Source: a virus
Lineage: Duplodnaviria > Caudoviricetes
Virus record (IMG/VR): IMGVR_UViG_3300044833_000066
Location: 1-60,246 of that record
Reading direction: 5' to 3' (one strand)
DNA length: 60,246 bases
Below, in pieces: positions 1-60,246 of this stretch; the first letter of the stretch is position 1; every line of letters begins with the position of its first letter. Position numbers and translations under genes: made by a program. The notes below the pieces were generated by a model, which saw only the letters and a program-made list of their open reading frames with translations, did no database searches and was not told the DNA's origin.

Positions 1-219
1 GGCAGATTCACTCGGCCGCGCGTATGATTTCGTCCAAGACGTGAGACTGTTAACCGGATCACATTTCGCCGCGCTGTTTCCGGAGGCGCTGATCCAGCGG
101 GAACGGTTGCTGGGCTTGGTAAAATCGTTCACCGCGATCTACACGCCCGAGATGTGCCTCAAAGCCAGCGCCACGCCCGGCGATCCGCTCAACGCGCCCA
201 CAGACCTGGTGCTCGCCTG

Positions 220-441
220 ATGGCCGGGATCGATGAGCCGCCCGACGGGGCGGTGGTGACCGACGAAGCGCTGGCTGATGCCCTGCGGGTTTTGGCGCTG
301 CGCTTTCGCCACGAACTCTGGGCGTACCGCGACGTGCTGGCACAGCTGACGGCCGACCAGATTTACCTCTACAGCACCGCGCTGGGCGCGATCGACAACC
401 TGGTGGCGTCACTCCCGGAGGCACACTGTGGCCAGGCCTAG
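220..441 (+). CDS. hypothetical protein
   Basis: Internal ATG of ORF 154..441; overlaps next ORF. Confidence 0.5.
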   Translation: MAGIDEPPDGAVVTDEALADALRVLALRFRHELWAYRDVLAQLTADQIYLYSTALGAIDNLVASLPEAHCGQA

Positions 442-2417: not shown

Positions 2418-3490
2418 GCCCGCCACGCGAACAACGGCACGACCTTGTCGGCCTGCTGGGGCGGCGGATCATCCCACGACAGCGCCGGACGCAACGAGTC
2501 GCCGCCGATTCCTGGGTTCGCTTCCGGTTCCACTTTCGTCTCCGTTTCGTCCACCGCCTGCTCGGCAGCCTGACGTTCCATCACCGCCTTGAGTGCGGGA
2601 TTATTCTCGCGCACCGCGGCGAGCTGCTCTGCCGACAGCGCGCCAGGTTTGCGCCCGTGCACGGCCTCGAACCGCACGACGAACCCATGCGGCGCCGCCC
2701 CGGGCACGGACGCACCAGACGGGCGGTCGACCTTGACGATGCCAGCGTCGGCCGCCATCTCCGCCCGCTGCTGCTGCGTGGGTTGGCGATTAGGTCCGAC
2801 CACATCGGAGCCGGAAACGGTGTCTGACACCGACAAAGGAACGAGGCCGGCGAGATGGGGAGACTTCCTCTCGACGGCCGCGCGCAACGCTTTCAACCAG
2901 TAGTTTGCTTGTGGATGCGGCGGCTCGAGGATGTTGCGCACCGACACGAGGATCGCCTTCGGATCGGTGTAGTCGTCCTCTGCCTCGCCCTGCTCATTGG
3001 CGATCCACCCAAGGCGTGCCGCGATTGCGCCCGCCGTGTGGTTGTTGCGCACGAGCCAGTTAAATCCCACTGGAGCCACCTTGCGGACAATGGATAACCG
3101 CCCCGCGAGATCCGAATCGCTCGCCTTGCCGCCGGCGACCCCGCGTAACCACGAGTCGACCTGATTACGATCTGCTGGCGTCAACGGAGCATCTGCCGGC
3201 GCGGCAATTTCTAACCCAGGCAGCGCTATGAGTGCTGGTTGGTTTTTGCTCCACCATTTTTCCAGAAATTTGCCAAGGATGCCGACCGACGGCAGCGACA
3301 TCAGGCCACACTCGATTGCAACGAACGCCGCCGATGCTTGGCAGAACATCCGCGTATCGGGGTATTTTTCCCCCACCATCACCGCGCGGGTTTTGATGAC
3401 GGCTTCTGGATCAGAACCGCTGGGAAGCCCAGTGCCCTGCGCTACCCAGTTCAGCCACTCAGTTACGGCAACAAGATGAGTTGGCGTCAT
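2414..3490 (-). CDS. hypothetical protein (position of helicase loader / P-like gene)
   Basis: 358-aa ORF coupled directly downstream of the replication initiator. Confidence 0.7.
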   Translation of the reverse strand: MTPTHLVAVTEWLNWVAQGTGLPSGSDPEAVIKTRAVMVGEKYPDTRMFCQASAAFVAIECGLMSLPSVGILGKFLEKWWSKNQPALIALPGLEIAAPADAPLTPADRNQVDSWLRGVAGGKASDSDLAGRLSIVRKVAPVGFNWLVRNNHTAGAIAARLGWIANEQGEAEDDYTDPKAILVSVRNILEPPHPQANYWLKALRAAVERKSPHLAGLVPLSVSDTVSGSDVVGPNRQPTQQQRAEMAADAGIVKVDRPSGASVPGAAPHGFVVRFEAVHGRKPGALSAEQLAAVRENNPALKAVMERQAAEQAVDETETKVEPEANPGIGGDSLRPALSWDDPPPQQADKVVPLFAWRA

Positions 3491-4434
3491 TGGCCGATCC
3501 TCCGCGTGTTGTCGACAGGCTCGGGGTCGAATGTCGGCGTCATCGGACGAAGCCCCAGCTTCTGCTCAAACGCAGCGTGACTGCCCGTACGCGCGCGTCG
3601 CACCGCCGGACGGTTGTCGTACGATCCTTCCAACAGCTTCGTCAGGGTTTTGGGCTGCAGCAGGAAATCAAATCCCGCCACCCATCCACGGTCATTTTCC
3701 CCGGCGCAAAAAGCTGACGCGCGAACCTTTTCGATCGCCTCGAGCATCCCATCGACCCCGACCGATGCGATCCGCAGTTCGAGCTTTTTGCGCCTGTCCC
3801 TGGTCAGCCCGCGCACGGCTGGCAAACCCCGGTCGACAGCCATCGCGTTCCATGCATCCGCCATGTCGCGCTCGATCGCGGCTTTCTCAGCGGCTCGCAA
3901 AACGACGACGTTTGACCCCGCTGCGGGAGTGGTCGCGTGCGCGCACGCGCTACCTCCCGCTAGGGAGGTTCTTTCTTCTCTTTCTTCTCTATCTTTCCTT
4001 TCTGAAGGATTCCCCCTCGAATCCGCACCCCCTCCCCCAGGGTCGGTTTCGGGGGTGGCCCGCGAAATCGAGGGTGTATATTCGGCTTCCGACCCCTGCG
4101 GATTCGAGGGGGTATAAATGGCGTCTTCCGACCCCTGCGAATTCGAGGGGGTAGGCTGGATCGACACGACAGGTAAACGATAAAGATTGCTGGTTTGACG
4201 CCCGTTCGACAGCGTACGAGGCTCAATTTCGAGCAAATCTGCCGCAACCAGTTGTTTGAGCGCTTTGCGGACCGCCAGATCGGTGTGTTGCGTGCGCTGG
4301 CAGATCGTCGGGATCGACGGAAAGCAATCGCCACCCTCCTGGCTGGCGCAATTTGCCAGATAAACGAGGACGGACTTGGCGACACCTGACGAGCAGTTTT
4401 GCTCCCACGCCCAGTTGAGTGCGGTGAAGCTCAT
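3487..4434 (-). CDS. phage replication initiator (N-terminal HTH_36-type wHTH, lambda O-like)
   Basis: MSFTALNWAW...KSVLVYLAN...CFPSIPTI...QTSNLYRL N-terminus; WVAGFDFLL...KLLEGSYDN C-terminus; internal iterons. Confidence 0.85.
   Translation of the reverse strand: MSFTALNWAWEQNCSSGVAKSVLVYLANCASQEGGDCFPSIPTICQRTQHTDLAVRKALKQLVAADLLEIEPRTLSNGRQTSNLYRLPVVSIQPTPSNSQGSEDAIYTPSNPQGSEAEYTPSISRATPETDPGGGGADSRGNPSERKDREEREERTSLAGGSACAHATTPAAGSNVVVLRAAEKAAIERDMADAWNAMAVDRGLPAVRGLTRDRRKKLELRIASVGVDGMLEAIEKVRASAFCAGENDRGWVAGFDFLLQPKTLTKLLEGSYDNRPAVRRARTGSHAAFEQKLGLRPMTPTFDPEPVDNTRRIGQ
3969..4153. repeat. putative replication origin: iterons plus AT-rich pyrimidine tract inside initiator gene
   Basis: CTTCCGACCCCTGCG(G/A)ATTCGAGGGGGTA at 4086-4114 and 4125-4153, partial copy 4061-4080, inverted copy 4012-4027, T/C tract 3969-4003. 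Confidence 0.75.
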
Positions 4435-4691
4435 GGCCGCGGCCCCCCGCGCACGAGAGATGACCGCGAGCTTACAAAATTGTGTGGATTCACAGGGCAT
4501 ACCTCCGGCTTGACGGGCCAGAGGCGATTTATTAGAAGGAGGGCAGCGATCTCTCCTTCGTTTGACCGCCTCCGGCCAGACGATTTCGGTTCTGCAGCCC
4601 TCATGCGCACACATGAGGGCTGAACTGTATTTAGCCTGCGAATCGCAATATCGACAAGTCGCAGTAAAACGCGTGAACCGGGCCCGTTCAT
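4431..4691 (-). CDS. hypothetical protein
   Basis: ATGA overlaps with both neighbours. Confidence 0.45.
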   Translation of the reverse strand: MNGPGSRVLLRLVDIAIRRLNTVQPSCVRMRAAEPKSSGRRRSNEGEIAALLLINRLWPVKPEVCPVNPHNFVSSRSSLVRGGPRP

Positions 4692-5227
4692 GACACCCGC
4701 CCCGCCGCAAACAGCGGCCCGGCGACACGCCGCGAGCCGCGCAGCTGGCCGACATACCAAAGCCAGGTCATGACCGCATCGGCGGCGTTATCGTCGGGAA
4801 CCTTGAGACCGATGCCGCGGCAATAGCGCACGACCACCCCCTTGACGGTGCCCTTGCTGAACCGCGCTTGCCCGAGGATCGCGAGCCGCACGATGTCGCT
4901 CGACACCTCCTCGATCGGCACCGACGCCCGCCAGGCTTCGGCATAGGCGATGCCCCGCAATGTCAGCTGCTGGCACATCACCCGCATGGTGCTAACCCCG
5001 AGCAGAGCCCCGAACGACAGTGGCGCCTCGAGGATCACGCGCGACGGCGAGAGGGCGTCCATAATGGCGGCCATTTCATTTTCAAACGCGGCATAGCGCG
5101 CGCCCTCCCCGCCGATGAGCGGGAGATGCCAGGTGCCGAAGCTCGGCGCGTTATCCGTCACGTGGCCGTACGCGGTGCCCGTCACGGACGACAGATCGAG
5201 GGCTAGGACGCCCCCAGGAACCGCCAC
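4688..5227 (-). CDS. RuvC-like Holliday junction resolvase
   Basis: VLALDLS..TG, VILEAP and DDNAADA acidic motifs of the RuvC fold. Confidence 0.8.
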   Translation of the reverse strand: MAVPGGVLALDLSSVTGTAYGHVTDNAPSFGTWHLPLIGGEGARYAAFENEMAAIMDALSPSRVILEAPLSFGALLGVSTMRVMCQQLTLRGIAYAEAWRASVPIEEVSSDIVRLAILGQARFSKGTVKGVVVRYCRGIGLKVPDDNAADAVMTWLWYVGQLRGSRRVAGPLFAAGRVS

Positions 5228-6008: not shown

Positions 6009-6260
6009 CTAGCGTCGGCGCGCCGCCGCGACCTGCCTGAAGGAGTCATACGAGATACCAGCCACACCCGCCCGGCGCGCGCTCTCGGCCAGCGCCTCCC
6101 AATGACGCTCGGCAATCACGTCCCGCCGATGCCAGGACCGCACCGTCTCAATCGAGACGCCGAGATCCAGGGCGATTTGGGCAAAGTCAGGCCACCGCTC
6201 GAGCAGCGATCGGTGGGTCGCGATTGGCGCCGCCGGCGCCATTGCCACGGATGTCATCAT
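6009..6260 (-). CDS. Cro-like HTH repressor
   Basis: IALDLGVSIETVRSWHRRDVI HTH; divergent from CI; start uncertain. Confidence 0.75.
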   Translation of the reverse strand: MMTSVAMAPAAPIATHRSLLERWPDFAQIALDLGVSIETVRSWHRRDVIAERHWEALAESARRAGVAGISYDSFRQVAAARRR

Positions 6261-6358
6261 CTGCACAGACTGTTCAGCTTGCACGCAATCCGTCAAGAGA
6301 CAACCACTCTCGGTTGTGAAGATTCTTTGTGACCCATTCGACCAGGAGCACGCACCCG
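6261..6358. promoter_or_regulatory. CI/Cro divergent control region
   Basis: Short intergenic region; minus-strand TTGACG (6291-6296) -35-like hexamer; AGGAG SD before CI. Confidence 0.55.
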
Positions 6359-6982
6359 ATGTTTATGGCCTCCGCCCCAGCCAGGCGACTGCGACAGGCT
6401 CGCGAACTAGCTGGCTTTCCGAGCGCGTCCGCGTTCGCCAGACACTGTGGCATCAAGACCGTGACTTATCAGCACCATGAGAACGGACTTCGCGACATTA
6501 CCGCGGAAAACGCAGCGTTGTACTCCAGGTTTTTGGGGTTGCCTGCAGGAACGTTGCTATTCGGCGAGCGTTTGCATTCCGCGCCCACTGTCCGTATATT
6601 TGGCTACATCGGACACGGGGGGGAAATCGAGCCCTTGAAACAAAGCGCACCCGCCCAAGAAACCGTCGTCCCCGAAGTTGACGGGTTGATGGCTTTGGTT
6701 GTGTCGGGAAACGATATCGGCGAGAAATACAGCAACGGCGACGTCTTATTCTACCAGCAGCTGCGCCCCGGCCGGTATGACCTGACCGACCTTGACAACA
6801 TCGAATGCGTCATCAAGCTGGACGACGGCGTCGTGCTGGTCGGCCAAATGATCACTGATCGGGGCGGCCAAACCACGGTGACCAGCTTCAACGGCCGCAC
6901 CATCCGCGAGGCCCTGGTGTTCGCCGCCAGCCCGGTGGAATTCGTTCGCCGGCATTTGCCCGCGCGCATTACCAACCACTAA
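6359..6982 (+). CDS. CI-like repressor (XRE HTH + degenerate S24-like domain)
   Basis: RLRQARELAGF..ASAFARHCGI...YQHHENG HTH; C-terminal ALVVSGND...GDVLFY S24-like fold. Confidence 0.85.
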   Translation: MFMASAPARRLRQARELAGFPSASAFARHCGIKTVTYQHHENGLRDITAENAALYSRFLGLPAGTLLFGERLHSAPTVRIFGYIGHGGEIEPLKQSAPAQETVVPEVDGLMALVVSGNDIGEKYSNGDVLFYQQLRPGRYDLTDLDNIECVIKLDDGVVLVGQMITDRGGQTTVTSFNGRTIREALVFAASPVEFVRRHLPARITNH

Positions 6983-9978: not shown

Positions 9979-10233
9979 ATGAAGCAAATCCGCCTGCGGG
10001 TAACCATCACCGCTGAAGACGCCGCCACCATCGACGCCGTCCAGACCCGCCTGACCGAACTGCTCGACGCCACCGGCACCGAGCACCTGCCGCGCCCGAA
10101 CGGAGACGCCAACGGCGAAGACCTGGCCGGTCCCATCAAAGGCCCGCGCGTGTTCTGGATGACCGCCGACGTCAAGCAGGGTAACGATCGCGCGCCAGAA
10201 ACAGCCACGCGGAAACGGGGAACCAAACCATGA
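9979..10233 (+). CDS. hypothetical protein
   Basis: Tightly packed in operon. Confidence 0.6.
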   Translation: MKQIRLRVTITAEDAATIDAVQTRLTELLDATGTEHLPRPNGDANGEDLAGPIKGPRVFWMTADVKQGNDRAPETATRKRGTKP

Positions 10234-10556
10234 TCATCAAGGCTGTGGAAATCAGGGATCGGCATACTTTCATCCCGGCGATCGCCGTCCGCATGATCGC
10301 GGCCAACGATGCGCAGGGTTACCTGATGCGTCACGTCGGCTTTCACGGCGACGGCGTCGTGCTGATGCGGCTCAATGACCAGGAAGCGCACAGCGACCCC
10401 TACGACTGGCGCAGCGGCTCCCGCACCATGCCGCAGGCGCACCTGTGGCTCTTGGAACATTTCGATGAGATCGAGGACGGCAGCGTCATTGATGTAGAGC
10501 ATATTTTAGGCGAATCCAGCGCTCCCAAGACGTCAGAAGCGAGGGGATGGGAATGA
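10230..10556 (+). CDS. hypothetical phage protein
   Basis: ATGA-coupled, globular composition. Confidence 0.7.
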   Translation: MIIKAVEIRDRHTFIPAIAVRMIAANDAQGYLMRHVGFHGDGVVLMRLNDQEAHSDPYDWRSGSRTMPQAHLWLLEHFDEIEDGSVIDVEHILGESSAPKTSEARGWE

Positions 10557-10819
10557 ACATCAACGACCAGAACATCCAGACAACGATCGCGGGAGAATGG
10601 GCCTCGTGGGAAGCGGAGTGCGTCACGGACCAGCACTCGCCGAAGCAGCGAAGTGAGATGCGGCGCGCGTTCTACTCGGGTGTGGCATCGCTGATGGCCA
10701 TGGTGACGACATGCCTAGATCCCAGCGACGATCTAACAGACGCGGACCTCAGCCGTGTGGAAAGCTGGTATGAGGAACTGCGTCGCTTCGGCGCAGATAT
10801 GCTAGCTGGGCGATCGTGA
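10547..10819 (+). CDS. hypothetical phage protein
   Basis: EMRRAFYSG motif common in phage small proteins. Confidence 0.65.
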   Translation: MGMNINDQNIQTTIAGEWASWEAECVTDQHSPKQRSEMRRAFYSGVASLMAMVTTCLDPSDDLTDADLSRVESWYEELRRFGADMLAGRS

Positions 10820-10842
10820 ATGCTACGATGTAAGGGTGGAAG

Positions 10843-11007
10843 ATGATGACTGACCCGAAGCCAGTAATCCAGACCAGCGTCACCGACGAAGGCGAGGTGC
10901 TGGTGACGCTGCCGGATGGCCGTATGGTCTTCATGGGATTCTGGGAAGCGACCAAGTTTGTGTGGCGCGCGATCTTCAAAGGCTACGATGTAAAGGTGGA
11001 AGAATGA
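10843..11007 (+). CDS. hypothetical 54-aa protein (not in ORF track)
   Basis: MMTDPKPVIQ...GYDVKVEE*; coupled to next gene; flanked by direct repeat. Confidence 0.55.
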   Translation: MMTDPKPVIQTSVTDEGEVLVTLPDGRMVFMGFWEATKFVWRAIFKGYDVKVEE

Positions 11008-11300
11008 TGTCTGACGATAACACCGCCGAGGCTCGCTTGATCGCTTCCGATCCGACGCCCGGACAATTCATCCGGGAACTCCACTGCTGGATCGCGACTT
11101 ACCCGGACGGCACCGAGGGAATCATGGCGAGCGGCTTCGAAGGTTTAGGCATGATGCCCCTCTTCTCGTCGCGTCGCGCCACAGCCGAGATGCTGGAACC
11201 CAGCGCACGGCGCATCCAGCAAACAGCGATGCACCAGGCAAATCAGATCGTCAGCATCCGGCTCGTTACTTTTAGCACGACCGAAGGCCCCCGCCAGTGA
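11004..11300 (+). CDS. hypothetical protein
   Basis: ATGA-coupled. Confidence 0.65.
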   Translation: MMSDDNTAEARLIASDPTPGQFIRELHCWIATYPDGTEGIMASGFEGLGMMPLFSSRRATAEMLEPSARRIQQTAMHQANQIVSIRLVTFSTTEGPRQ

Positions 11301-11506
11301 GCGACACAACCAGGGAACAATGGATCGGCAACACCCGCGTGGATGATCTTGTCACGGTGCGCCAGGACGACGACGGCGCCTGGATCGCCGTCCATGCCTG
11401 CGGCTGGCCGGCGGTGCGAAACTGTCCGTGCTGCGGCAAACTGTTTCCGACCGCGCGCGCGGCACAGATCGTGGCCGACCTGGTCTATCCACGCGTCCGC
11501 AACTGA
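11297..11506 (+). CDS. hypothetical protein with CPCC motif
   Basis: GTGA-coupled. Confidence 0.6.
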   Translation: MSDTTREQWIGNTRVDDLVTVRQDDDGAWIAVHACGWPAVRNCPCCGKLFPTARAAQIVADLVYPRVRN

Positions 11507-11781
11507 TCTGCCGGCTCGACCTCAGCCGATGGTTTGTCGTGCGCAACGGCGGCCCCTATGCGGCGCTCGACCTCAGCGTGATCGCCAAGCACCGCCAGTG
11601 CATCGAGCAGACCCACGGCGCCACACTGGAAGCGATCAACGCAGCCGGCGGCCTCGACTGGATCGAACTATGGTGCGCGCTGCACGACCGCCCGGTGTGG
11701 CCGCTGCCGCCGATCAGCACCGATGACGCCCGGGCGGCGGTGCTCGCCGCGGTCACCGCCGCCCGCGCCCCGAAGAAATAA
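11428..11781 (+). CDS. hypothetical protein (start uncertain)
   Basis: C-terminal THGATLEAINAAGGL region looks coding. Confidence 0.5.
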   Translation: MLRQTVSDRARGTDRGRPGLSTRPQLICRLDLSRWFVVRNGGPYAALDLSVIAKHRQCIEQTHGATLEAINAAGGLDWIELWCALHDRPVWPLPPISTDDARAAVLAAVTAARAPKK

Positions 11782-11870
11782 CGAAGGCCGAAGCCGCCGA
11801 CGTGCTACAAACGAAATATTCGGCCAGCCGGAGTCGCTGGCCGTCTGTTGGACGTTTCCCCCCTTACCTG

Positions 11871-11905
11871 CCCGGCCGCGTCACCCGACGCGCCGGGGTT
11901 TTTTG
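11871..11905 (+). terminator. rho-independent terminator
   Basis: CCCGGC(C)GCGTC-ACCC-GACGCGCCGGGG hairpin + TTTTTT. Confidence 0.7.
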
Positions 11906-11927
11906 CGTGACCGCTAGAAGCGCGCGG

Positions 11928-12206
11928 TCATCGCGACCACTCCCCGCCGTGCCCAGGATACTCGGCGAGAAACCCCGAGGTGAACGCCAGCACGTCGGCC
12001 AAGCGAACCGGCAGTTCGGGAAGCCGGCCCAGGTCATGCGCGGTGCCGGGTATGGCTTTCCGGCATATTTGCAACGCCTGCTCGCGGGTGTACTGGCCAG
12101 CCTCGGATATGCTAACGACGTATCCGCACCTGCCCGGTCCCCACCACCGCGCGTGTTCATGACTCCAAATCAGATATATGTCCGCCAATTCTAGCTCGTC
12201 AGTCAT
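11928..12206 (-). CDS. hypothetical phage protein
   Basis: YLIWSHEH..WW....GY......AGQY pattern; GGGGA SD. Confidence 0.7.
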   Translation of the reverse strand: MTDELELADIYLIWSHEHARWWGPGRCGYVVSISEAGQYTREQALQICRKAIPGTAHDLGRLPELPVRLADVLAFTSGFLAEYPGHGGEWSR

Positions 12207-12283
12207 GTCCCCAACCTTTCGATGAAGTCCCGCTGTCTATGCGGCTCAACAAGTAGCGTGCGAGGGCAAATGACACGAATCGT

Positions 12284-12337
12284 TTGACAACAGCAAACCG
12301 ATAGGCAAACCCTCCGGGCAAACCAGAGGGGAAAACC
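12284..12337 (+). promoter_or_regulatory. promoter (TTGACA) overlapped by phased GCAAACC repeats
   Basis: TTGACA at 12284; GCAAACC at 12293, 12305, 12318 and GAAAACC at 12331 (12-13 bp period). Confidence 0.65.
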
Positions 12338-12799
12338 ATGGCAGACCCGGCAGACCTGGCTTCTTGGACAATTAAGAAAGTCCCGCGAGAGACCAAGCAG
12401 AAGGCGCTGAAAGCGGCCAACGCCGCCGACCAGACGATGGGAGAGTGGATGATCGAGACGGTCGACCGCGTGACCGACCCGCATACGGCAAACCAAGTCA
12501 TCCCGCCCGGCAGACCAGAGCCGCCAGCACAGCCGGCACAGCCCGCCCTGCCGGAGATCGACCTCGCCGGCATGGCCGCGCTGCTGAACGCCACCCTCGC
12601 CGCCCTGGCCGCCAAAGAGGCACCCAAAGGCCTCGGCCGAGACGCCGCGATCACCCTCCAGCGCTACATGCGGGCAGCCCGCGGCCTGCCCCCGCCCAAG
12701 CGCAGGCAAACCAAAGCCGAAAACGGGCAAACTATCGCCGAAAATGGGCAAACCCTGCTAATGATAGGGCCGCAGCTGCCCCCCGGAGGAAACCCATGA
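12338..12799 (+). CDS. ribbon-helix-helix DNA-binding protein
   Basis: SWTIKKVPRETKQKALKAANAADQTMGEWM resembles the WSVKG...GMTLGEWL RHH-like segment; C-terminal GQTxAEN repeats. Confidence 0.6.
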   Translation: MADPADLASWTIKKVPRETKQKALKAANAADQTMGEWMIETVDRVTDPHTANQVIPPGRPEPPAQPAQPALPEIDLAGMAALLNATLAALAAKEAPKGLGRDAAITLQRYMRAARGLPPPKRRQTKAENGQTIAENGQTLLMIGPQLPPGGNP

Positions 12800-13063
12800 T
12801 ATCACAGCAACGCTTCGCCCTGGCGCATCCGGTCTGGCAATCTGGAAACCGGCGATGGCTATCAGCCGTATCTGGACCAGGATCTGCTGGATCTGATCGC
12901 CAAGTTATAGCTTGGCCGACAAGGCATTGAGAAGCCACGACGATTGCCCGATTTCGCGCTCATTTCTCAGAAGTGGAACGGGGTTTGATCCGCCGGCGAC
13001 TTGCCGCCACCTCGTTGCAACAGCGTTTTTCGTTTTGGATCAATTGGTTAGATCGTGTCTGCC

Positions 13064-13091
13064 GCCCCGTATAATGAACATTATGTTAATC
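13064..13091 (+). other. XerC/XerD dif-like recombination site
   Basis: GCCCCGTATAA-TGAACA-TTATGTTAATC, 11-6-11 architecture, 20/28 identical to E. coli dif; intergenic AT-rich island. Confidence 0.8.
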
Positions 13092-13113
13092 CGATTTTTG
13101 AGAGCGCGGAGAC

Positions 13114-13128
13114 GAACCGAGCGTGAAC
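13114..13128 (+). promoter_or_regulatory. possible alphaproteobacterial LexA box
   Basis: GAAC-CGAGCGT-GAAC matches GAAC-N7-GAAC, intergenic, about 60 bp upstream of ORF 13188; could occur by chance. Confidence 0.35.
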
Positions 13129-13187
13129 GCTGCGGAATTGCGCAGTTACGAAATTATGCACAATCATGCCAGATGGAGGATTGAACC

Positions 13188-13592
13188 ATGGCCGCCCTAC
13201 TCATCGGTGAACCCGAACGCCAGAAGATCGCCGAGCTGATCGCCGTCGCCGCGGCCGGTGTGATGAGCCCGCAGCGGGCGCTGGACGCGGCCAACGAAGA
13301 CCTGGCGGGCTATCGCGACATGATGGGCCGGATGCTGTCGATCGAGTTGCCGGTCGGCTATTACGTGACCTATTCGCATGAGCGTCAGCCGAGCGGGCTC
13401 TGCCACCACATCAGCGTCAGTGTCGATCGCCCGGGCAAGATGCCGTCGGTCGAGGCCGTCAACATGATCCTTGAAGCGTTCGGCATGCAGCCGGTGCTCA
13501 AGGCGGTTCCCGGCAAACGGGTCTGGATCGAGGACGTCGAGCCCGGCCAGAAAGCGATTAATATCGTTCAGCCTGTGGATCAGCCCCGCTAA
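13188..13592 (+). CDS. hypothetical protein
   Basis: GGAGG SD; HHISVS...MPS motif seen in phage proteins. Confidence 0.75.
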   Translation: MAALLIGEPERQKIAELIAVAAAGVMSPQRALDAANEDLAGYRDMMGRMLSIELPVGYYVTYSHERQPSGLCHHISVSVDRPGKMPSVEAVNMILEAFGMQPVLKAVPGKRVWIEDVEPGQKAINIVQPVDQPR

Positions 13593-13830
13593 CGTCGCTT
13601 GAAAAGACATAATCCGTCTCAATCGCGACACCGAAATATCTACGCACTGCGCGGCTTTCCATGAGCGCTCCTGTTAGCACCCGCACGGGGCCGGGGATGT
13701 CGCGTTCCCCCGCCTCCCAGCGGCGCACAGTGCGACCGCTCTCGACGCCAATCAGACGCGCGAAGCCCTCGGCACTGAGGCCGAGGGCGCTGCGGGCGGA
13801 ACGCAAATCGGAGGGTCCGAAGTGGCTCAA
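13558..13830 (-). CDS. XRE-family HTH regulator (antitoxin-like)
   Basis: LRSARSALGLSAEGFARLIGV..GRTVRRWEAGERDIPGP. Confidence 0.85.
   Translation of the reverse strand: MSHFGPSDLRSARSALGLSAEGFARLIGVESGRTVRRWEAGERDIPGPVRVLTGALMESRAVRRYFGVAIETDYVFSSDVSGADPQAERY
13577..13617 (+). repeat. 41-bp direct repeat, copy 1
   Basis: GGATCAGCCCCGCTAACGTCGCTTGAAAAGACATAATCCGT identical to 14088-14128. Confidence 0.95.
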
Positions 13831-13860
13831 TTTGCGTACGCGCTGGTCGTAATCGAGACC

Positions 13861-13986
13861 CTAGCGGGCCGCCTTGGGCCAGTTCGCCACCAGCCAGCGG
13901 GCGGCATGTTGAATATCAGCTTCGCTGAATTCTCCCTTCGGCAGGGAAGCCCGAAGTTCGGCGGCTACTGCGTTGATCTTTTCCAT
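13861..13986 (-). CDS. 41-aa hypothetical protein
   Basis: AAGGA SD, MEKINAVAAEL...WPKAAR*, downstream of promoter 14021-14049. Confidence 0.6.
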   Translation of the reverse strand: MEKINAVAAELRASLPKGEFSEADIQHAARWLVANWPKAAR

Positions 13987-14020
13987 GGTGGCGTTCCTTG
14001 TTGTCCGTTTAGGCAATCGA

Positions 14021-14049
14021 GACATAGGGCCAATGGCCCTATATGTCAA
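14021..14049 (-). promoter_or_regulatory. sigma70-type promoter with palindromic operator
   Basis: TTGACA-17 bp-TATGTC on minus strand; perfect inverted repeat ATAGGGCCA-A-TGGCCCTAT (14024-14042) across the spacer. Confidence 0.75.
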
Positions 14050-14087
14050 CGCCTTCGCCCACACTTTTTCCCGGATAGCCGCCGAGC

Positions 14088-14128
14088 GGATCAGCCCCGC
14101 TAACGTCGCTTGAAAAGACATAATCCGT
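14088..14128 (+). repeat. 41-bp direct repeat, copy 2
   Basis: Identical to 13577-13617. Confidence 0.95.
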
Positions 14129-14195
14129 ATCTCGACTCGGATCTGATCGCCAGGCTATAAAGTTCACACAAAAAACGAATGGGGGACTATCAACA

Positions 14196-14588
14196 ATGTC
14201 AGTCGCGCTTTCCGACGTGCAAGACGCCGAGCGATTCCTGGCTCTCGCGGCGACCGCCGAACAGGTGGCGATCCTGTGGCGCCAGCGCGCCGCGGCCGTG
14301 CTTGGCGTCGCCACAACCGCTCCCGCCAGCGCGCCCCCGCCGCCGACGCCGAGACCGACCCGCGGGCCGAAACGGATCCCAACCGACCGGATCCTGGCGA
14401 TGTTCGAACTCGGCAAGTCGCCGAAAGGTGCCTCCCGCGAGCAGCTGATGATCGCCGCCGGCTGGGAGAGGTTGCCCTACCCATCGACGCTGCGGCTGTT
14501 AGCCAAGCGGCGCGGCCTGGATATGAAGGTGTTGACCGGTTCCGGGCGGGAACTCCGGTACCGCTTCATCGAGACAACCCATGGCTGA
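14196..14588 (+). CDS. hypothetical protein with C-terminal wHTH-like domain
   Basis: PKGASREQLMIAAGW resembles PEGATSAELFETTGW of 53562 ORF. Confidence 0.6.
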   Translation: MSVALSDVQDAERFLALAATAEQVAILWRQRAAAVLGVATTAPASAPPPPTPRPTRGPKRIPTDRILAMFELGKSPKGASREQLMIAAGWERLPYPSTLRLLAKRRGLDMKVLTGSGRELRYRFIETTHG

Positions 14589-14892
14589 CAAACGCGGAGA
14601 AGCCTATGCCTTCGTGGCCATGCTGGTGATCGAGACCGACGATCCACGGTTGAGCGAAGCCAAACTGGCCGCCATGGGTTCGGTGAGCAGCGTCGCCGCG
14701 ATCCGGCACGCGGTGCTGCAGCACCTGCCCCAGGACGTCAAACGCCTGGTGGCGGTACTCCCCGTCGAGCATGCGCGGATGCTCATGATGCTGCACGAAG
14801 CGGTGGGCAAAGACATCGCCGATGAATTGAACGTCGAGAAACCGCTGTTCCAACGACCGCCAGCGGACTACGTCCCGCCGACGCAGGGGTGA
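14581..14892 (+). CDS. hypothetical protein
   Basis: Overlap-coupled ORF. Confidence 0.65.
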   Translation: MADKRGEAYAFVAMLVIETDDPRLSEAKLAAMGSVSSVAAIRHAVLQHLPQDVKRLVAVLPVEHARMLMMLHEAVGKDIADELNVEKPLFQRPPADYVPPTQG

Positions 14893-14938
14893 GGGTGCGG
14901 GATTAGTTTCTTTGAAGCGCTAGCCAAGGAATTGAGCG

Positions 14939-15127
14939 ATGACGAAAGAGCGGTTCTGTTGGTATTGCGGCGACTCGCTGGGCGAAATCGATAGCCGCTT
15001 CTACGAGAAAGGCGACACGTGCGGAAAGTCTGAGTGCGAACGTGAGGCCCGCGCGATGCAACGCGAGGAACGCGACGACGCGCACCGTGATCTGGACGAG
15101 AGAATGGGATGGGAACGATCGACATGA
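14939..15127 (+). CDS. small Cys-rich protein
   Basis: CWYC...CGKSEC; AAGGA SD. Confidence 0.65.
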   Translation: MTKERFCWYCGDSLGEIDSRFYEKGDTCGKSECEREARAMQREERDDAHRDLDERMGWERST

Positions 15128-15363
15128 AGTTGACACTCGAACAGACCGAACAATTCTTCATGGCCGGCGATGTCATGTGCCGGGCCTGGACCGGCACCGA
15201 TGCCGGCGGAAACCCCTGCGTCGCCCTGATCTCACTCGTCCAGTTCATCGGCAACGGCCAGTTTGACCCCGAATGCGTGGTGTCGATCCCGGCGCCGACG
15301 CGCGAATCCGCCGAGCAATGGGCGCATACCGTCCTCAGCGGCAACGTGGACTTTCCGAAATGA
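15124..15363 (+). CDS. hypothetical protein
   Basis: ATGA-coupled. Confidence 0.65.
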   Translation: MKLTLEQTEQFFMAGDVMCRAWTGTDAGGNPCVALISLVQFIGNGQFDPECVVSIPAPTRESAEQWAHTVLSGNVDFPK

Positions 15364-15680
15364 CCGAAGCGCCGACGCAGCCCGCAATCGACCCTTACGC
15401 GGTTCTCTTCGATGCCTGCCGGCGCACCAAACTGAAGCCGCGCGAAACGACGCTGATGCGGGACTGTCTTTTCGCGCGCCGAACCGTTGAGAACGGCCAT
15501 CTTCTGATCACGCCTCGCCGCGTGGCCGCCGCGCGCCGGCTGATGGAAAAGGGCTACCTGTTGCAAGCGCCAGATCAACCCCGCCCGTTCGATCCCGTGA
15601 ACTTCGGCCTAGTCGTCGTGGCCCGTACAGAACACTTTGATAAGCTGATCGCCGACGCCAACGTGGCCGGAGCCGACTGA
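15360..15680 (+). CDS. hypothetical protein
   Basis: ATGA-coupled. Confidence 0.6.
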   Translation: MTEAPTQPAIDPYAVLFDACRRTKLKPRETTLMRDCLFARRTVENGHLLITPRRVAAARRLMEKGYLLQAPDQPRPFDPVNFGLVVVARTEHFDKLIADANVAGAD

Positions 15681-15807
15681 TGACGCCAAAGCCCCAGCCA
15701 TTACCGCCATGCGTGCGCTTTCCGCGCCGGAAATGCCCCGGCGCATGCCAATACGTGCTGCCGGCCGGCGCATGCCTTCACGCATTGCAGCAGCTGGAGC
15801 CCGACGG

Positions 15808-15981
15808 ATGACGGACGCACACATCCTCCACGACAACGCCAAGCGCCAGCTCGAAACCGCCGCCCTCTCCCTACAGCGCCGCCTTTATCTGCTTGCCGCC
15901 GGACATCTCGAATGCGCTATCTCCATCCTCCGCATGCTCCACGAACAGCAGCAAACCGAGCATGTGGTGGAAAGACCATGA
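15808..15981 (+). CDS. hypothetical protein
   Basis: GGAG SD; coupled to next gene. Confidence 0.5.
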   Translation: MTDAHILHDNAKRQLETAALSLQRRLYLLAAGHLECAISILRMLHEQQQTEHVVERP

Positions 15982-16208
15982 AGGAAGTCCCGACCAAATC
16001 CGATACCACCGAGGACGATGGCTATGTGCGGGCTATCCGCAAGGACCACCTCTCACTGCGTGACATCGACATCGACGCCTTCGCTGATGGTGTTCTAGCG
16101 CATCGTGGCGGTTCTCAATTCCACGAGAATCCGCATGGAACCGACGCACTCACTCTGCGCAGGCTGTCGTGGAGCATGGGCTGGAACGAGAGGGCTTTGC
16201 AGCAATGA
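15978..16208 (+). CDS. RMF-like small protein
   Basis: AFADGVLAHRGG....NPH...WSMGW motif. Confidence 0.5.
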   Translation: MKEVPTKSDTTEDDGYVRAIRKDHLSLRDIDIDAFADGVLAHRGGSQFHENPHGTDALTLRRLSWSMGWNERALQQ

Positions 16209-16240
16209 ACAGCGAACACCAGACCACCTGCGCATAGACA

Positions 16241-16435
16241 GTGACCGGCGCGGCCGATCCCAAGACCTGGTATCTCGTCACCTGCACGGACTGCGGCAAA
16301 CCGCTGAAGGTCCTCGGTGCGCCACCGGCAAAACCAATCTGCCTGCACTGTGATATCATCAGGGCCGCCCCGGAGGAGATGCGCGAGAGTATCCGCGATG
16401 CATTGCGCCCGCTGCCCGAGGACCTCGCCCGCTGA
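16241..16435 (+). CDS. small zinc-finger-like protein
   Basis: CTDC...CLHC. Confidence 0.5.
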   Translation: MTGAADPKTWYLVTCTDCGKPLKVLGAPPAKPICLHCDIIRAAPEEMRESIRDALRPLPEDLAR

Positions 16436-16805
16436 CAAGCGGACGAAATTGCTTTACCCGATCTGAGCCGGGATTGCCCTATTTCTGGCAAAGCCGCGGC
16501 AATCCTAGCTTCACGTTTCCCCCGCAGACTTGGCTACATACCCGCCTTAGCTGCGCGATGAATTTACGATCTCTCTCCATATCCGGTCGCGCATCTCCTC
16601 CTGGATCTCGTAGGCGCCGCCGCCGGTCGCATCAGGATGCAGGCACGGCTCCCAAGAGCTTGTTGCGACGAAAGCTGATAGCCCGCAGTTTCTGCACCAC
16701 TGCTGCACCGTTCGTCCCAGACAGAAATCCGCAAAGCGATGTCCTCCGAAGTCAGGGGTGAACATCCCACAATCCTACCTGTTGAACAGGCTGGAGCTTT
16801 AACAC

Positions 16806-16836
16806 AAAAATAGCCTCCGCCCCGAAGGACGGAGGC
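16806..16836 (-). terminator. rho-independent terminator of the late operon
   Basis: Minus strand GCCTCCGTCC-TTCG-GGGCGGAGGC-TATTTTT. Confidence 0.85.
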
Positions 16837-16860
16837 CAAACGCCCGCGCGGGTGGACACC

Positions 16861-17031: not shown

Positions 17032-17041
17032 GGCGACCCCC

Positions 17042-19319: not shown

Positions 19320-19344
19320 ATGAATATTACCTAATGCTAAATGT

Positions 19345-56731: not shown

Positions 56732-57720
56732 TCCGCCGCGACCTGCGCAGCAACCGCCTGGCCGAACGCCACACCGTCTGCCTCGCGCACCGCGACCTGC
56801 CCGGTGAACATCTGCCAACGCTGCACTGCCACGTCGACGTAGATCGCCGCGATCTCCATGCCGAAGCAACTCCGCCCGTTCATTTCCGCCGCGATGACGG
56901 TCGAGCCCGCGCCACAGAACGGCTCATAAAGCACGCCGCCGACGTCGCTATACGCCCGCAGCATCTCTGCCGGCAGCGCGACCGGGAACACCGCCGGATG
57001 CTTGACCTCCATCCCGCGCGCCTTGTGCCGCATGATCCGCACGACGCTATCGGGCCAATGACTGACCTCGTCGTCGGACAGGCTCAACAGCGCCATCATG
57101 AATTCATCGAGCCGCCGGAGAACGCGCACGACGCTATCGGGAATCTTGTGGGTTTGCAGAGACTTCCCCGGGCTGCTTATGCCGCTCATTGTTCCGTCAC
57201 GCCGCCGCATTCCATTGCCGTGGTCATTGAACTGAATTGACGCCGCAAGTTTTGCCTTTGTCTTGCGCGCCCGCTCGGCGACCCTGTTGAAATGGAAGAT
57301 GAACTCGTGCGCAGGCGCGAGGCGCCCGTTCCAGTCACCAGGCAGACCTGCGCCCTGGTCCCACACATACCAGCCGAAGCGCCGCCAGCCCTGCGACCGC
57401 ATCCAATCAATCCACCCGCCCCAGTACGGCATCCACTCGCCGTCGCGATGGATCATCCCGAGATTGACCAGCACCTGGCCGCCAGGACGCATCGGCAGAA
57501 GCGCGAACACACCCTGCATCAACGCATCCCACGAAGCGATCGACGCCGTGTAATCCCGCTGCTGGCCGTACGGTGGCGAGGTAAAGCAGAGATCCGCAGC
57601 GACGCCCGCCATCAGCACGCCGACATCCGCCGGCTTGGTGCTGTCGCCGCACATCACGCGATGGGCCCCGACCGGCTCGGCATCGAACACCGCGCCGCAC
57701 CCAGCACACGCGCACCTCAT
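56728..57720 (-). CDS. beta-class DNA methyltransferase A (SPPY, probably m4C)
   Basis: HRVMCGDST, FTSPPY, HPAVFP, EPFCGAGST; ATGA-coupled. Confidence 0.9.
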   Translation of the reverse strand: MRCACAGCGAVFDAEPVGAHRVMCGDSTKPADVGVLMAGVAADLCFTSPPYGQQRDYTASIASWDALMQGVFALLPMRPGGQVLVNLGMIHRDGEWMPYWGGWIDWMRSQGWRRFGWYVWDQGAGLPGDWNGRLAPAHEFIFHFNRVAERARKTKAKLAASIQFNDHGNGMRRRDGTMSGISSPGKSLQTHKIPDSVVRVLRRLDEFMMALLSLSDDEVSHWPDSVVRIMRHKARGMEVKHPAVFPVALPAEMLRAYSDVGGVLYEPFCGAGSTVIAAEMNGRSCFGMEIAAIYVDVAVQRWQMFTGQVAVREADGVAFGQAVAAQVAAE

Positions 57721-58322
57721 GCCCGCTTGACGCTCTGCACCAGCTGGCAGTGCGGACACGTCACCTTGCCGCCCAGCAGCCAGACGTCGCCAGGCTGCGA
57801 CACCGGAACCTCCGGCACCGGCGGCACATCGTCGGGATCGGTGAGCCCCACCTTGTCGCCAAACAGCCCCGCCAATTCGCCGGCATCAAATCCGATCAGC
57901 GACAGATCAAACCCGTCCTCGCGCAACGCGCCCAACTCCAGCCGGAGCAGATCCTCGTCCCACCCGGCATCGAGCGCCAGCTTGTTGTCGGCAATGACGT
58001 ACGCCCGCCGCTGCGCCGCAGAGAGGTGCGACAACTCCAGCGTAGGAACCGTCTCCATGGCCAGCTTCTGAGCCGCCAGGACTCTGCCGTGCCCCGCCAC
58101 GACCCCGTTTTTGCCATCGGTCAGGATGGGATTGGTAAACCCGAACTCCCGGATCGACGCCGCCAGCTTGTCGATCTGCGCCGGCGAATGCGTGCGCGGG
58201 TTTTTGTCGTACGCGACCAGACTGTCGACCCGCGCCACGACGTACGCCGGGAACCCCGGATCGGCAGGCGCGACGACTGGCGCCGGCGCCTTGGCCCGAC
58301 TCACTGCCGGCTTTTTGGTCAC
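57717..58322 (-). CDS. ParB/Srx-like N-terminal domain protein (MTase-associated type)
   Basis: NPRTHS..QI..LAASIREFGFTNPIL, AGHGR, IADNKLA, GDVWLLG. Confidence 0.9.
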   Translation of the reverse strand: MTKKPAVSRAKAPAPVVAPADPGFPAYVVARVDSLVAYDKNPRTHSPAQIDKLAASIREFGFTNPILTDGKNGVVAGHGRVLAAQKLAMETVPTLELSHLSAAQRRAYVIADNKLALDAGWDEDLLRLELGALREDGFDLSLIGFDAGELAGLFGDKVGLTDPDDVPPVPEVPVSQPGDVWLLGGKVTCPHCQLVQSVKRA

Positions 58323-58500: not shown

Positions 58501-58516
58501 TGTTGGCGTCTTCCAC

Positions 58517-58645: not shown

Positions 58646-58647
58646 TG

Positions 58648-59505: not shown

Positions 59506-59721
59506 GTGAAATACGCCATCGCCAGCGGGTATGGGGAAATTCTCTTTTTAACGACCAACGATACGGTAACCGAGCAGGCGGACGATCCCGCCATCCAGAC
59601 CTTCGATCGCTATGACGCAGCCCTCGACTGGATCAGCCGCCGATCGCGGTCCTCCCGCGTGCTGTGCGCGCTATCGCCGATCGTCTGTCCCTACCCCGCG
59701 ATAGGAGACGACCACCGGTGA
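59506..59721 (+). CDS. hypothetical protein
   Basis: AAGGA SD; coupled to next gene. Confidence 0.5.
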   Translation: MKYAIASGYGEILFLTTNDTVTEQADDPAIQTFDRYDAALDWISRRSRSSRVLCALSPIVCPYPAIGDDHR

Positions 59722-60246
59722 GCGTGCTGCGCAGGCTGACCGACTACAGCGATCCGAACTCCTGGGGATCGCGCATCCGCCGCCGCCGCACCGCGCAGCT
59801 GCGCACGATGATCGAAACCTACTCCCGGCGCCAGCCCGGGCCGGTGCGCATCATCGACATGGGCGGCGAGGCGTCATACTGGCAGATTTTCGGCGATGCG
59901 TGGCTGGAAGCGCACCGGGTCAAAATCGATCTGGTCAACCTCTACGACGAAAAACTGCCGGTAAACCCGAACCCTCTTGTGTATTCGCTGCGCGTGGCGG
60001 ACTGCTGCGACCTGAGCGACATTGCCGACAAGTCGTATGATATTGCCCACAGCAATTCCGTGGTGGAGCATTTGACCAACTGGCGGCAGATGGAGCAGTT
60101 TGCCCGCAACGCCCGCCGGGTGGCGCGGAGCTATTACCATCAGACACCGAATTTTTGGTTTCCGGTCGAGCCGCATTTCGGGTTCGTCGGGTTCCAACTG
60201 CTGCCCGAGAGTATGCGCGCCAACCTGAGTCTGCGCCGGCCGCTGG
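59718..60246 (+). CDS. class I SAM-dependent methyltransferase (partial, runs off window)
   Basis: IIDMGG, YDIAHSNSVVEH, QTPNFWFPVEPHF; AGGAG SD; absent from ORF track because no stop codon. Confidence 0.8.
   Translation, partial: MSVLRRLTDYSDPNSWGSRIRRRRTAQLRTMIETYSRRQPGPVRIIDMGGEASYWQIFGDAWLEAHRVKIDLVNLYDEKLPVNPNPLVYSLRVADCCDLSDIADKSYDIAHSNSVVEHLTNWRQMEQFARNARRVARSYYHQTPNFWFPVEPHFGFVGFQLLPESMRANLSLRRPL

What the first reader, a model, noticed from the sequence alone, without database searches (positions are those of the whole stretch)
13064..13091. Integrase-less temperate tailed phage carrying a XerC/D dif-like site
Seen: GCCCCGTATAA-TGAACA-TTATGTTAATC has the 11-6-11 dif architecture and matches E. 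coli dif (GGTGCGCATAATGTATATTATGTTAAAT) at 20/28 positions, including TTATGTTAA of the XerD arm. It lies in an AT-rich intergenic island. The phage has a CI/Cro switch, but no tyrosine or serine recombinase, transposase or protelomerase is recognisable, including at the usual int/att position (16.4-16.9 kb). Known: Xer hijacking (IMEX) is best described for filamentous phages such as CTX and VGJ, satellites and islands; plasmids use cer/psi/pdif sites. Inference: this roughly 60-kb podovirus either integrates at host dif using host XerCD or persists as a plasmid prophage and uses XerCD for dimer resolution.
Basis: partly seen in the sequence, partly recalled or inferred. Interest (0 to 1): 0.85.

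Follow-up and report, generated by a model that had tools for sequence, protein, structure and literature searches.

The report
Host dif look-alike in integrase-less phage
A 60-kb tailed phage that has no recombinase gene of its own carries one near-copy of the chromosome-dimer resolution site (dif) of its likely host genus, so it probably borrows the host XerC/XerD enzymes, a habit so far described for small non-tailed phages.

Summary
The 28-bp site is at 13064-13091 and is unique in the window. It is a specific look-alike of a host dif, not just of E. coli dif. The capsid gene links this phage lineage to a Rhodopila sp. MAG. In that genus, 29 of 41 genomes hold exactly one copy of a dif-type site. 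The phage site differs from two of them at 2 of 24 bases and breaks only 2 positions that are invariant across all 29.

A weight matrix built from these sites scores the phage site 19.0 bits. The next best place in the window scores -3.0, and none of 300 simulated 60-kb sequences reached 19.

The feared "unsequenced gap" is only about 13 bases: one methyltransferase gene is split across the two contig ends. Six-frame searches find no tyrosine recombinase, serine recombinase, rve transposase or ParA. The genome has a lambda-like layout, with repressor, Cro-like regulator, O-like initiator and ERF.

Not shown: any integrated copy, or any Xer binding. Contigs from two samples carry only the unrecombined site. 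The choice between integration at dif (my favourite) and resolution of episome multimers stays open. One relative with a dif-like site has ParA, and another has a small serine recombinase.

The parts
13064..13074 (+). XerC-arm look-alike, GCCCCGTATAA
   Evidence: 6-8 of 11 identical to the 29 genus dif sites. It agrees at every arm position that is invariant in those sites. The CCGTATAA part is the same as in the dif of G135 and G179.
13075..13080 (+). 6-bp central region, TGAACA
   Evidence: 5 of 6 identical to TGAATA, the central region of 8 of the 29 genus dif sites. The one difference is the fifth base, on the XerD side, which is T in all 29.
13081..13091 (+). XerD-arm look-alike, TTATGTTAATC
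   Evidence: 9 of 11 identical to most genus dif sites and 10 of 11 to L140. The last base is C where all 29 have T.
13013..13035 (+). Terminator-like hairpin and T run just upstream of the site
   Evidence: Only 1 was found against 0.9 expected in shuffles, so it is weak by itself. It does place the site between transcription units.
12338..12799 (+). Upstream gene g21, with a possible ribbon-helix-helix N-terminus
   Evidence: One search gives feature scores of 0.86-0.92, which is a lead only. One search shows BLASTP E 6e-11 and 31% identity to an ORF that lies on the XerC side of plasmid-type dif-like sites in contigs L124 and L119 of the candidate host MAG. Pfam finds nothing.
12705..12754 (+). 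21-bp tandem repeat, 2.4 copies, inside the 3' end of g21, 310-360 bases from the XerC arm
   Evidence: score 72. Function unknown. Recorded because accessory sequences of plasmid Xer sites lie on the XerC side.
13188..13592 (+). Downstream gene g22, function unknown
   Evidence: Searches give no family. Five homologues at 52-59% identity in other contigs have no dif-like site upstream.
6359..6982 (+). CI-like repressor
   Evidence: Pfam HTH_3 at 24.3 bits. phrog_4 transcriptional repressor, E 1.7e-7, covering residues 8-179.
6009..6284 (-). Cro-like regulator, divergent from the repressor
   Evidence: phrog_2856, E 3e-4. Weak.
3487..4755 (-). Lambda O-like replication initiator
   Evidence: phrog_345, E 5.7e-26. 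Pfam HTH_36.
59664..60246 (+). 5' part of a class I SAM methyltransferase gene that runs off the contig end
   Evidence: It aligns to residues 1-176 of the 253-aa homologue P0001 at 81% identity.
2..220 (+). 3' part of the same methyltransferase gene at the contig start, showing that the record closes on itself
   Evidence: positions 2-217 align to residues 182-253 of P0001 at 87.5% identity. Only about 5 codons are missing between the two ends.
57717..58322 (-). ParB_N-like protein beside two DNA methylases. Its homologue in relative G002 lies next to that phage's tyrosine integrase.
   Evidence: In the window the matching upstream place (58339-59396) holds only small ORFs.

Best explanation
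The 28-bp element is a working look-alike of the host chromosome's dif site. In a lysogenic infection the host's own XerC and XerD bind its two arms. With this site the phage does without an integrase. My preferred mode is integration of the circular phage genome into the host dif, as in the VGJ-type elements that exploit Xer (IMEX). XerC would exchange the strands on the side where the central regions agree (TGA). The single mismatch next to the XerD arm would hinder the XerD exchange, so the junction would be finished by replication or another resolvase. Shown here: the site, its specific likeness to the dif of one genus, the lack of any phage recombinase, and the closure of the genome. Inferred: binding, recombination, and integration as the outcome.
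For: 1. Specificity. The capsid protein's only hit among genomes of 185,579 species is a Rhodopila sp. MAG, G006. A chromosomal-looking contig of that MAG carries ATGCCGCATAA TGAATA TTATGTTAAAT.

2. That motif is the genus dif. 29 of 41 genomes of the genus have exactly one match at up to 3 mismatches, and the reversed-pattern control gave 0. The loci are partly syntenic.

3. The phage site is 18-22 of 28 identical to these 29 sites. It departs from invariant positions only at base 16 and base 28.

4. Across 401 genomes of the order, the phage 24-mer matched at up to 3 mismatches in only 5. Four of these belong to this genus, and two (G179, G172) differ at only 2 bases.

5. The weight matrix scores the site 19.0 bits. 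The next best place in the window scores -3.0. The best score in 300 simulated sequences averaged -1.3 (sd 4.2, largest 16.3). Nothing scored above 10 in 837,015 bases of 80 related loci.

6. Likeness to host DNA stops at the core, 13067-13089. The flanks are unrelated, so this is not a captured chromosome piece.

7. No recombinase. PF00589, PF00239 and PF00665 give 0 six-frame matches, and there is none in the 60 ORFs scanned. The contig gap is about 13 bases.

8. No ParA (PF13614) in six frames.

9. Lambda-like temperate layout. Relative G002 has a tyrosine integrase and no dif-like site, with a best score of -1.35.

10. The central region (5 of 6) and XerD arm follow the chromosomal dif. 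They do not follow the plasmid-type sites of the same MAG, which read TTATGGTAA with unrelated central regions.

11. XerD-like and second Xer-like genes are present in 5 of 5 genus genomes tested.

12. The review PMC5357621 (passages read) describes the VGJ attP as one double-stranded dif-like site whose central region differs next to the XerD side, so that only XerC acts. It also names a 57-kb IMEX.
Against: No integrated copy was seen. The capsid gene occurs in 1 of 77 genus genomes, on an unlinked 4,152-base contig. None of the window's proteins lies within 1.5 kb of any of the 29 dif loci. Each of the 29 genomes has one dif match, not two. No early-region DNA of the window is in G006.

Contigs of two samples (X1, probably the source, and X2) cross the site in the unrecombined form with 0 differences. 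These are contigs, not reads, so rare junctions would not show.

The matrix score of 19.0 is far below real dif sites (47.9-56.1). The two departures hit positions that are invariant in the genus, and they might weaken XerD binding or block recombination.

No close relative exists to test conservation. Five g22 homologues lack the site.

Among the other dif-like-site carriers, G203 has a ParA gene and a central region unlike dif (2 of 6), which fits episome resolution better. G001 has a small serine recombinase.

The host link rests on one binned 4-kb contig of an 8.1-Mb MAG, plus the site match itself.

My literature searches found no tailed-phage IMEX.
Confidence: 0.45

Rival explanations
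1. The site is a Xer substrate, but the prophage stays a free circle. Host XerC/XerD recombine two copies of the site on a dimer and so return replicating episomes to monomers, as cer, psi and plasmid dif sites do. The one-base difference from the chromosomal dif would then help to keep the episome out of the chromosome.
For: The record closes on itself and has its own O-like initiator. No integrated copy was found. G203 is a complete circular phage genome that shares the window's repressor module (g8, g9, g11). It has a dif-like site whose arms are 22 of 22 identical to the dif of G144 while the central region is 2 of 6, and it has a ParA gene and neither a tyrosine (PF00589) nor a serine (PF00239) recombinase gene. 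The candidate host MAG has at least 9 small plasmid-like contigs, each with its own dif-like site. So Xer sites on extrachromosomal DNA seem common in this host group. g21, upstream of the site, is related to an ORF upstream of two of those plasmid sites.
Against: No ParA (AAA_31) in six frames. No CbiA, ParM or TubZ family in the 60 ORFs scanned with Pfam. The only ParB_N hit sits beside DNA methylases. The central region and XerD arm copy the chromosomal dif rather than the plasmid-type sites of the same MAG; resolution alone does not require that. GGGNAGGG motifs (1 forward, 7 reverse) do not switch direction at the site, though the host's real motif is unknown. Plasmid prophages described in PMC8026635 (passages read) mostly carry their own Xer-like recombinase and a partition system; this phage has neither.
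Confidence: 0.3
2. The look-alike has no Xer role. It is a promoter -10 box (TATAAT at 13070-13075) with an overlapping palindromic operator, or a chance AT-rich palindrome in an intergenic gap.
For: It holds a perfect TATAAT. It holds a 5-4-5 palindrome, ATAAT GAAC ATTAT. It lies 97 bases ahead of a gene start. In the G205/G206 phages a pattern-matched 'dif-like' site lies between the small and large terminase genes, which shows that such pattern hits need not be Xer sites.
Against: The promoter scan found no site in 12600-13400, so no -35 partner stands at 16-18 bases. There is no second copy or half-site anywhere in the window, whereas operators usually recur. The TATAA is itself part of the dif of G135 and G179. 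The test against the host genus could have failed and did not: 2 of 24 mismatches to two genomes, and 4 of the 5 hits in 401 genomes fall in the predicted genus. None of 300 simulations reached the score.
Confidence: 0.15
3. The site is a Xer substrate that serves another exchange. It could be a landing place in the phage for small Xer-exploiting elements or satellites. Or it could drive co-integration with the dif-like sites of host plasmids.
For: The candidate host MAG holds many plasmid-like contigs with dif-like sites. Many small IMG/VR contigs carry such sites.
Against: The phage central region differs from all 9 plasmid-type central regions listed. No inserted element is seen beside the site in the window, or in the contigs of X1 and X2.
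Confidence: 0.1

Closest known systems
attP of VGJ-type IMEX (filamentous Vibrio phages)
   Same: One double-stranded dif-like site with both arms. No phage integrase. The central region agrees with the host dif on the XerC side and differs next to the XerD arm (PMC5357621, passages read).
   Different: Here the carrier is a 60-kb tailed double-stranded DNA phage of a likely alphaproteobacterial host. The central region differs at 1 base rather than 4. Integration has not been seen.
dif-type double jelly-roll prophages and inoviruses of Vibrio; gokushovirus prophages at dif
   Same: Phages that lack an integrase and present a dif-like attP (PMC12715192, passages read; PMC9865509 and PMC7062461, search listing only).
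   Different: Those are small non-tailed phages. Their attP is flanked by rstR and xafT genes. No DUF3653 (XafT) match occurs in 0 of 5 records tested, including the window.
Gonococcal genetic island
   Same: A 57-kb element that sits at dif through Xer, so size is no bar (PMC5357621 and PMC2731167, passages read).
   Different: It is not a virus, and it is always seen integrated.
Plasmid Xer sites (cer, psi, plasmid dif) and plasmid prophages
   Same: A core Xer site used to resolve multimers of a free replicon (PMC5357621; PMC8026635).
   Different: cer has an 8-bp central region and about 180 bases of accessory DNA. The plasmid prophages described there mostly carry their own Xer-like recombinase plus ParA or ParM. 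The window has none of these.
Chromosomal dif of the Rhodopila-group genus (found here)
   Same: 11-6-11 layout. 18-22 of 28 bases identical to the 29 sites, and 22 of 24 to G179 and G172.
   Different: Base 16 is C instead of T and base 28 is C instead of T. The flanks are unrelated.

Membership tests
XerC/XerD core recombination site (dif type) | Two 11-bp arms with partial dyad symmetry around a 6-8 bp central region | tested here: met
   11-6-11 layout. The inner arm bases TATAA and TTATG form the dyad.
XerC/XerD core recombination site (dif type) | The arms match the XerC and XerD binding arms of the host's own dif | tested here: met
   All arm positions invariant in the 29 genus dif sites are kept except base 28. 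The host assignment itself is inferred.
XerC/XerD core recombination site (dif type) | The host encodes XerC and XerD | tested here: met
   5 of 5 genus genomes have a full-length XerD-like match at 299-310 bits (curated cut-off 329.6, so just under it). Each also has at least one further Xer-like match: 218-230 bits in four of them, 192 bits at best in G006.
XerC/XerD core recombination site (dif type) | Bound and cut by XerC/XerD | not testable with these tools
   Needs gel-shift and recombination assays.
IMEX (integrative mobile element exploiting Xer) | No integrase or other recombinase of its own | tested here: met
   (six-frame searches). (60 ORFs). Closure of the record.
IMEX (integrative mobile element exploiting Xer) | Central region agrees with the host dif where the first strand exchange takes place | tested here: met
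   TGAACA against TGAATA. The three bases on the XerC side are identical.
IMEX (integrative mobile element exploiting Xer) | Found inserted at the host dif, flanked by dif and a hybrid site | tested here: inconclusive
   None seen. One dif match per genome in 29 of 41. No phage genes at the 29 dif loci. Capsid gene in 1 of 77 genomes. Contigs of 2 samples show the free form. The sample is small and mostly MAGs.
IMEX (integrative mobile element exploiting Xer) | Xer activation factor (XafT, DUF3653), needed by the TLC type only | tested here: not met
   0 of 5 records. Not required for the XerC-first route.
Plasmid prophage with a Xer multimer-resolution site | Partition system (ParA, ParM or TubZ with a centromere-binding protein) | tested here: not met
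   no AAA_31 in six frames of the window. No such family in the 60 ORFs scanned. g21 as a ribbon-helix-helix protein is only a lead.
Plasmid prophage with a Xer multimer-resolution site | Own replication initiator | tested here: met
   lambda O-like initiator at 3487-4755. Integrating lambdoid phages have this too.
Plasmid prophage with a Xer multimer-resolution site | Accessory sequences beside the XerC arm | not testable with these tools
   Accessory proteins of this host group are unknown. A 21-bp repeat at 12705-12754 is noted.
Sigma-70 promoter with operator | A -35 hexamer 16-18 bases upstream of the -10 | tested here: not met
   0 promoter-like sites in 12600-13400.
Sigma-70 promoter with operator | Repeated operator copies | tested here: not met
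   no second copy and no second half-site in the window.

The most novel reading that the evidence does not exclude
A lineage of temperate tailed phages of peat and soil Acetobacteraceae has replaced the integrase/attP module with a bare copy of the host's dif. These phages lysogenise by host XerC/XerD alone. That would make them the first tailed-phage IMEX, at the size of the largest known IMEX. The same trick would have been taken up independently, at different genome places, by at least three unrelated early-gene modules (window, G001, G203).
Probability: 0.35. Interest if true: 0.85.

Novelty: new variant of a known kind. Interest (0 to 1): 0.72.

Why it matters
Tailed phages are taken to lysogenise with their own integrase or transposase, or as plasmids with their own partition and resolution genes. 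A 60-kb tailed phage that relies on a 28-bp copy of the host dif would show otherwise: Xer hijacking would not be limited to small filamentous, microvirus-like and jelly-roll phages. Prophage finders that look for integrases would miss such phages. A dif look-alike could also serve as a precise host-genus predictor for uncultured phages. Here it pointed to the same genus as an independent capsid-to-MAG link.

Tried and rejected
**Close relatives of the site region**
- Megablast of 10000-20000 against 50,697 phage records gave no match.
- ERF protein: 0 relatives in IMG/VR and 1 homologue at E 1e-20 or better in the protein collection.
- The g22 scans gave 2 loci in IMG/VR and 3 in metagenome contigs. 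Two of these five appear to be one sequence (identical scan results). All are 52-59% identical and none has a site.
- So conservation in near relatives could not be tested.

**Junction search**
- The right half-site plus flank had 0 exact matches in metagenome contigs.
- Laid runs were Logan contigs only, so starts, ends and rare junctions could not be seen.

**IMG/VR pattern scan**
- I do not count them as support. The match is by design, and my rough estimate of chance hits in so large a collection is of the same order for AT-rich contigs.
- One recurrent site (G205/G206) lies between the terminase genes of a tailed phage that showed no tyrosine integrase (the only recombinase family searched in it).

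**Other dead ends**
- KOPS-like motifs showed no switch of direction at the site.
- No XafT. No tRNA genes. The 16.4-16.9 kb gap holds only a hairpin.
- g6 (2414-3490): no PDB relative. The single-sequence AlphaFold model has pLDDT 40.6 and is unusable; no fold search was run.
- g22: Atlas structure hits are all under TM 0.5.
- I first took G001 to be recombinase-free because only PF00589 had been searched. Searches then showed a 211-aa resolvase-family serine recombinase 1.4 kb from its dif-like site, and I corrected my reading.

**Tools and files that were closed**
- Supplementary tables were closed, for example the dif lists cited from Kono et al. 2011. I therefore derived the genus dif from genomes myself.
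- No protelomerase family search was run.

Full report
**What is there.** The window is a whole IMG/VR virus record of 60,246 bases, classed linear with an estimated completeness of 95%. At 13064-13091 the + strand reads GCCCCGTATAA TGAACA TTATGTTAATC. It occurs once in the window even at 3 mismatches, and 100 shuffles gave none. No half-site recurs. It lies in a 257-base gap with GC 0.51, against 0.64 for the genome. A terminator-like hairpin at 13013-13035 precedes it, and gene g22 starts at 13188.

**The genome is closed and has no recombinase.**
- The ORF that runs off the 3' end (59664-60245) is a class I SAM methyltransferase.
- Its best homologue, P0001 (253 aa), aligns by residues 1-176 to the contig's end. 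Residues 182-253 align to positions 2-217 at the contig's start, at 81% and 87.5% identity.
- So the two ends adjoin on a circular or circularly permuted molecule. About 13 bases are missing, and no integrase can hide there.
- Six-frame family searches found no tyrosine recombinase, serine recombinase or rve transposase. The controls rang in 14, 13 and 8 of 14 known genomes.
- Pfam scans of 60 ORF translations, including every ORF of 280 aa or more, and PHROGs scans of 30 found none either.

**Kind of phage.** The structural genes are on the - strand from 17 to 51 kb: major head 41939-43009, portal 44316-46859, large terminase 49941-51320. The early region is lambda-like:
- a repressor (6359-6982) facing a Cro-like gene (6009-6284);
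- behind the latter, a RuvC-like gene and an O-like initiator;
- behind the repressor, Gp157, ERF and a run of small genes to 16.4 kb.

The site lies on the repressor-ERF strand, about 3.4 kb beyond ERF.

**Host and its dif.** This test could have failed.
- The capsid protein has many relatives in IMG/VR: 145 stretches, of which 80 were kept. Among genomes of 185,579 species it has one hit, a 4,152-base contig of a Rhodopila sp. MAG, G006.
- A contig of that MAG with housekeeping-looking ORFs (my reading of the translations) carries ATGCCGCATAA TGAATA TTATGTTAAAT.
- In the genus of G006, 29 of 41 genomes hold exactly one match at up to 3 mismatches. The reversed pattern gave none. This is the behaviour of a chromosomal dif.
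- The looser core pattern is rare elsewhere in the family: 4 of 121 genomes.
- The phage site is 18-22 of 28 identical to the 29 sites. Against their invariant positions it departs only at base 16 (C for T, fifth base of the central region) and base 28 (C for T).
- In 401 genomes of the order, the phage 24-mer matched at up to 3 mismatches in 5 genomes. Four are of this genus, and G179 and G172 have 2 mismatches each.
- A weight matrix of the 29 sites scores the phage site 19.0 bits, against -3.0 for the next best place. None of 300 simulated sequences reached 19 (largest 16.3).
- Real dif sites score 47.9-56.1, so the phage site is a diverged copy, not a perfect one.
- Likeness to host DNA is confined to 13067-13089.
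- XerD-like and second Xer-like genes are present in 5 of 5 genus genomes tested.

**Relatives.** Only the structural module is shared with the long related records G001-G005.
- G002 has a tyrosine integrase next to a homologue of the window's ParB_N-like gene, and no dif-like site.
- G001 is a complete circle with a 127-base overlap. It has a strong dif-like site of its own, ATGCCGCAGAA GATATA TTGTGTAAAGT, at 31.9 bits, where two transcription units converge. It also has a 211-aa resolvase-family serine recombinase 1.4 kb away.
- G203 came from the pattern scan, so it is post hoc. It is a complete circle that shares the window's g8-g9-repressor module. It has a site whose arms equal the dif of G144 at 22 of 22 bases while the central region matches at only 2 of 6. 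It has a ParA gene and neither a tyrosine nor a serine recombinase gene.
- G003, G004 and G005 have neither a tyrosine integrase nor a dif-like site, but they are incomplete.

**Integration or episome.**
- Against integration: no inserted copy anywhere; only the intact site in contigs of two samples; and the G203 case, which looks like a phage-plasmid.
- I put integration at 0.45, episome resolution at 0.30, no Xer role at 0.15 and other Xer uses at 0.10.

**The promoter rival.** The TATAAT is part of the dif variant of G135 and G179. No -35 partner was found, and there is no second operator copy.

**Comparison with what is known.** Elements that exploit Xer are described for inoviruses, jelly-roll phages, microviruses, satellites and genomic islands. 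Four searches for a tailed-phage case found none; the library lacks most subscription journals. Plasmid prophages described in PMC8026635 mostly encode their own Xer-like recombinase and partition proteins. Either way, a tailed phage that depends on host Xer through a bare dif copy would be a new variant of a known kind.

Noticed in passing
window 59664-60246 and 2-220: One class I SAM methyltransferase gene is split over the two ends of the record. The IMG/VR 'linear, 95% complete' record is therefore a closed genome missing about 13 bases.
   Followed up: yes
G006 contigs L119, L121, L123-L128 (for example L124 minus strand 896, L125 plus strand 447): The candidate host MAG holds 8 small contigs that each carry a dif-like site, consensus CAGCCGCATAA-N6-TTATGGTAAAT (L119 reads TTATGTTAA). 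The 6-bp central regions vary, while 30 or more bases of flank are conserved on both sides. A looser ninth site on L120 has unlike flanks. By my reading of the translations, some of these contigs also carry RepA-, ParA-, BrnT- and DUF29-like ORFs. They look like plasmid Xer sites or modules bounded by them.
   Followed up: partly
G203 (L282) 14973-15000; ParA at G203 22955-23596: A complete 56.6-kb circular phage genome has a site whose two arms are identical to a real genus dif (G144) while 4 of its 6 central bases differ. It also has a ParA gene and neither a tyrosine nor a serine recombinase gene. This is a candidate phage-plasmid that uses host Xer.
   Followed up: partly
G001 (L092) 4331-4358 minus strand; 5750-6382 minus strand: A complete 62.9-kb relative has a 31.9-bit dif-like site with a degraded XerD arm where two transcription units converge. 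A small resolvase-family serine recombinase lies 1.4 kb away.
   Followed up: partly
G206 (L287) 3440-3467; G205 20590: A common group of 35-38 kb tailed phages (about 56% GC, some 25 IMG/VR contigs) has GAACCGCATAA GGCCCA TTATGTAAAAA in the gap between the small and large terminase genes. Whether this is a Xer site, a packaging signal or chance is open.
   Followed up: partly
window 12338-12799 and 12705-12754: g21 is related (E 6e-11) to an ORF upstream of two plasmid-type dif-like sites of G006 and may start with a ribbon-helix-helix fold. Its 3' end holds a 21-bp tandem repeat of 2.4 copies, about 310-360 bases from the XerC arm.
   Followed up: partly
window 13139-13160 minus strand: A lone XerC-arm-like GCATAA half-site in inverted orientation lies about 55 bases beyond the main site. 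It is the second-best matrix score in the window (-3.0) and is probably chance.
   Followed up: no
window 5234-5881: A 215-aa early protein carries a ribosome modulation factor (RMF) domain at 33.2 bits, above the cut-off of 27.9. G203 has a homologue.
   Followed up: no
window 20437-24042, 46856-48802, 17892-19745: The structural module holds a 1,201-aa ORF with a ddrB-ParB domain and a 648-aa protein beside the portal with an ART-PolyVal ADP-ribosyltransferase domain. It also holds a 617-aa protein with a glycosyl hydrolase family 26 domain, a likely depolymerase.
   Followed up: no
window 13395-13611, seen in run X2: In an independent sample, one contig (1,252 bases) of a related strain is identical over 12837-13395, which includes the site, but has 21 other letters in place of 215 bases inside g22. 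Another contig of that run differs at many bases around 11.97-12.13 kb.
   Followed up: no
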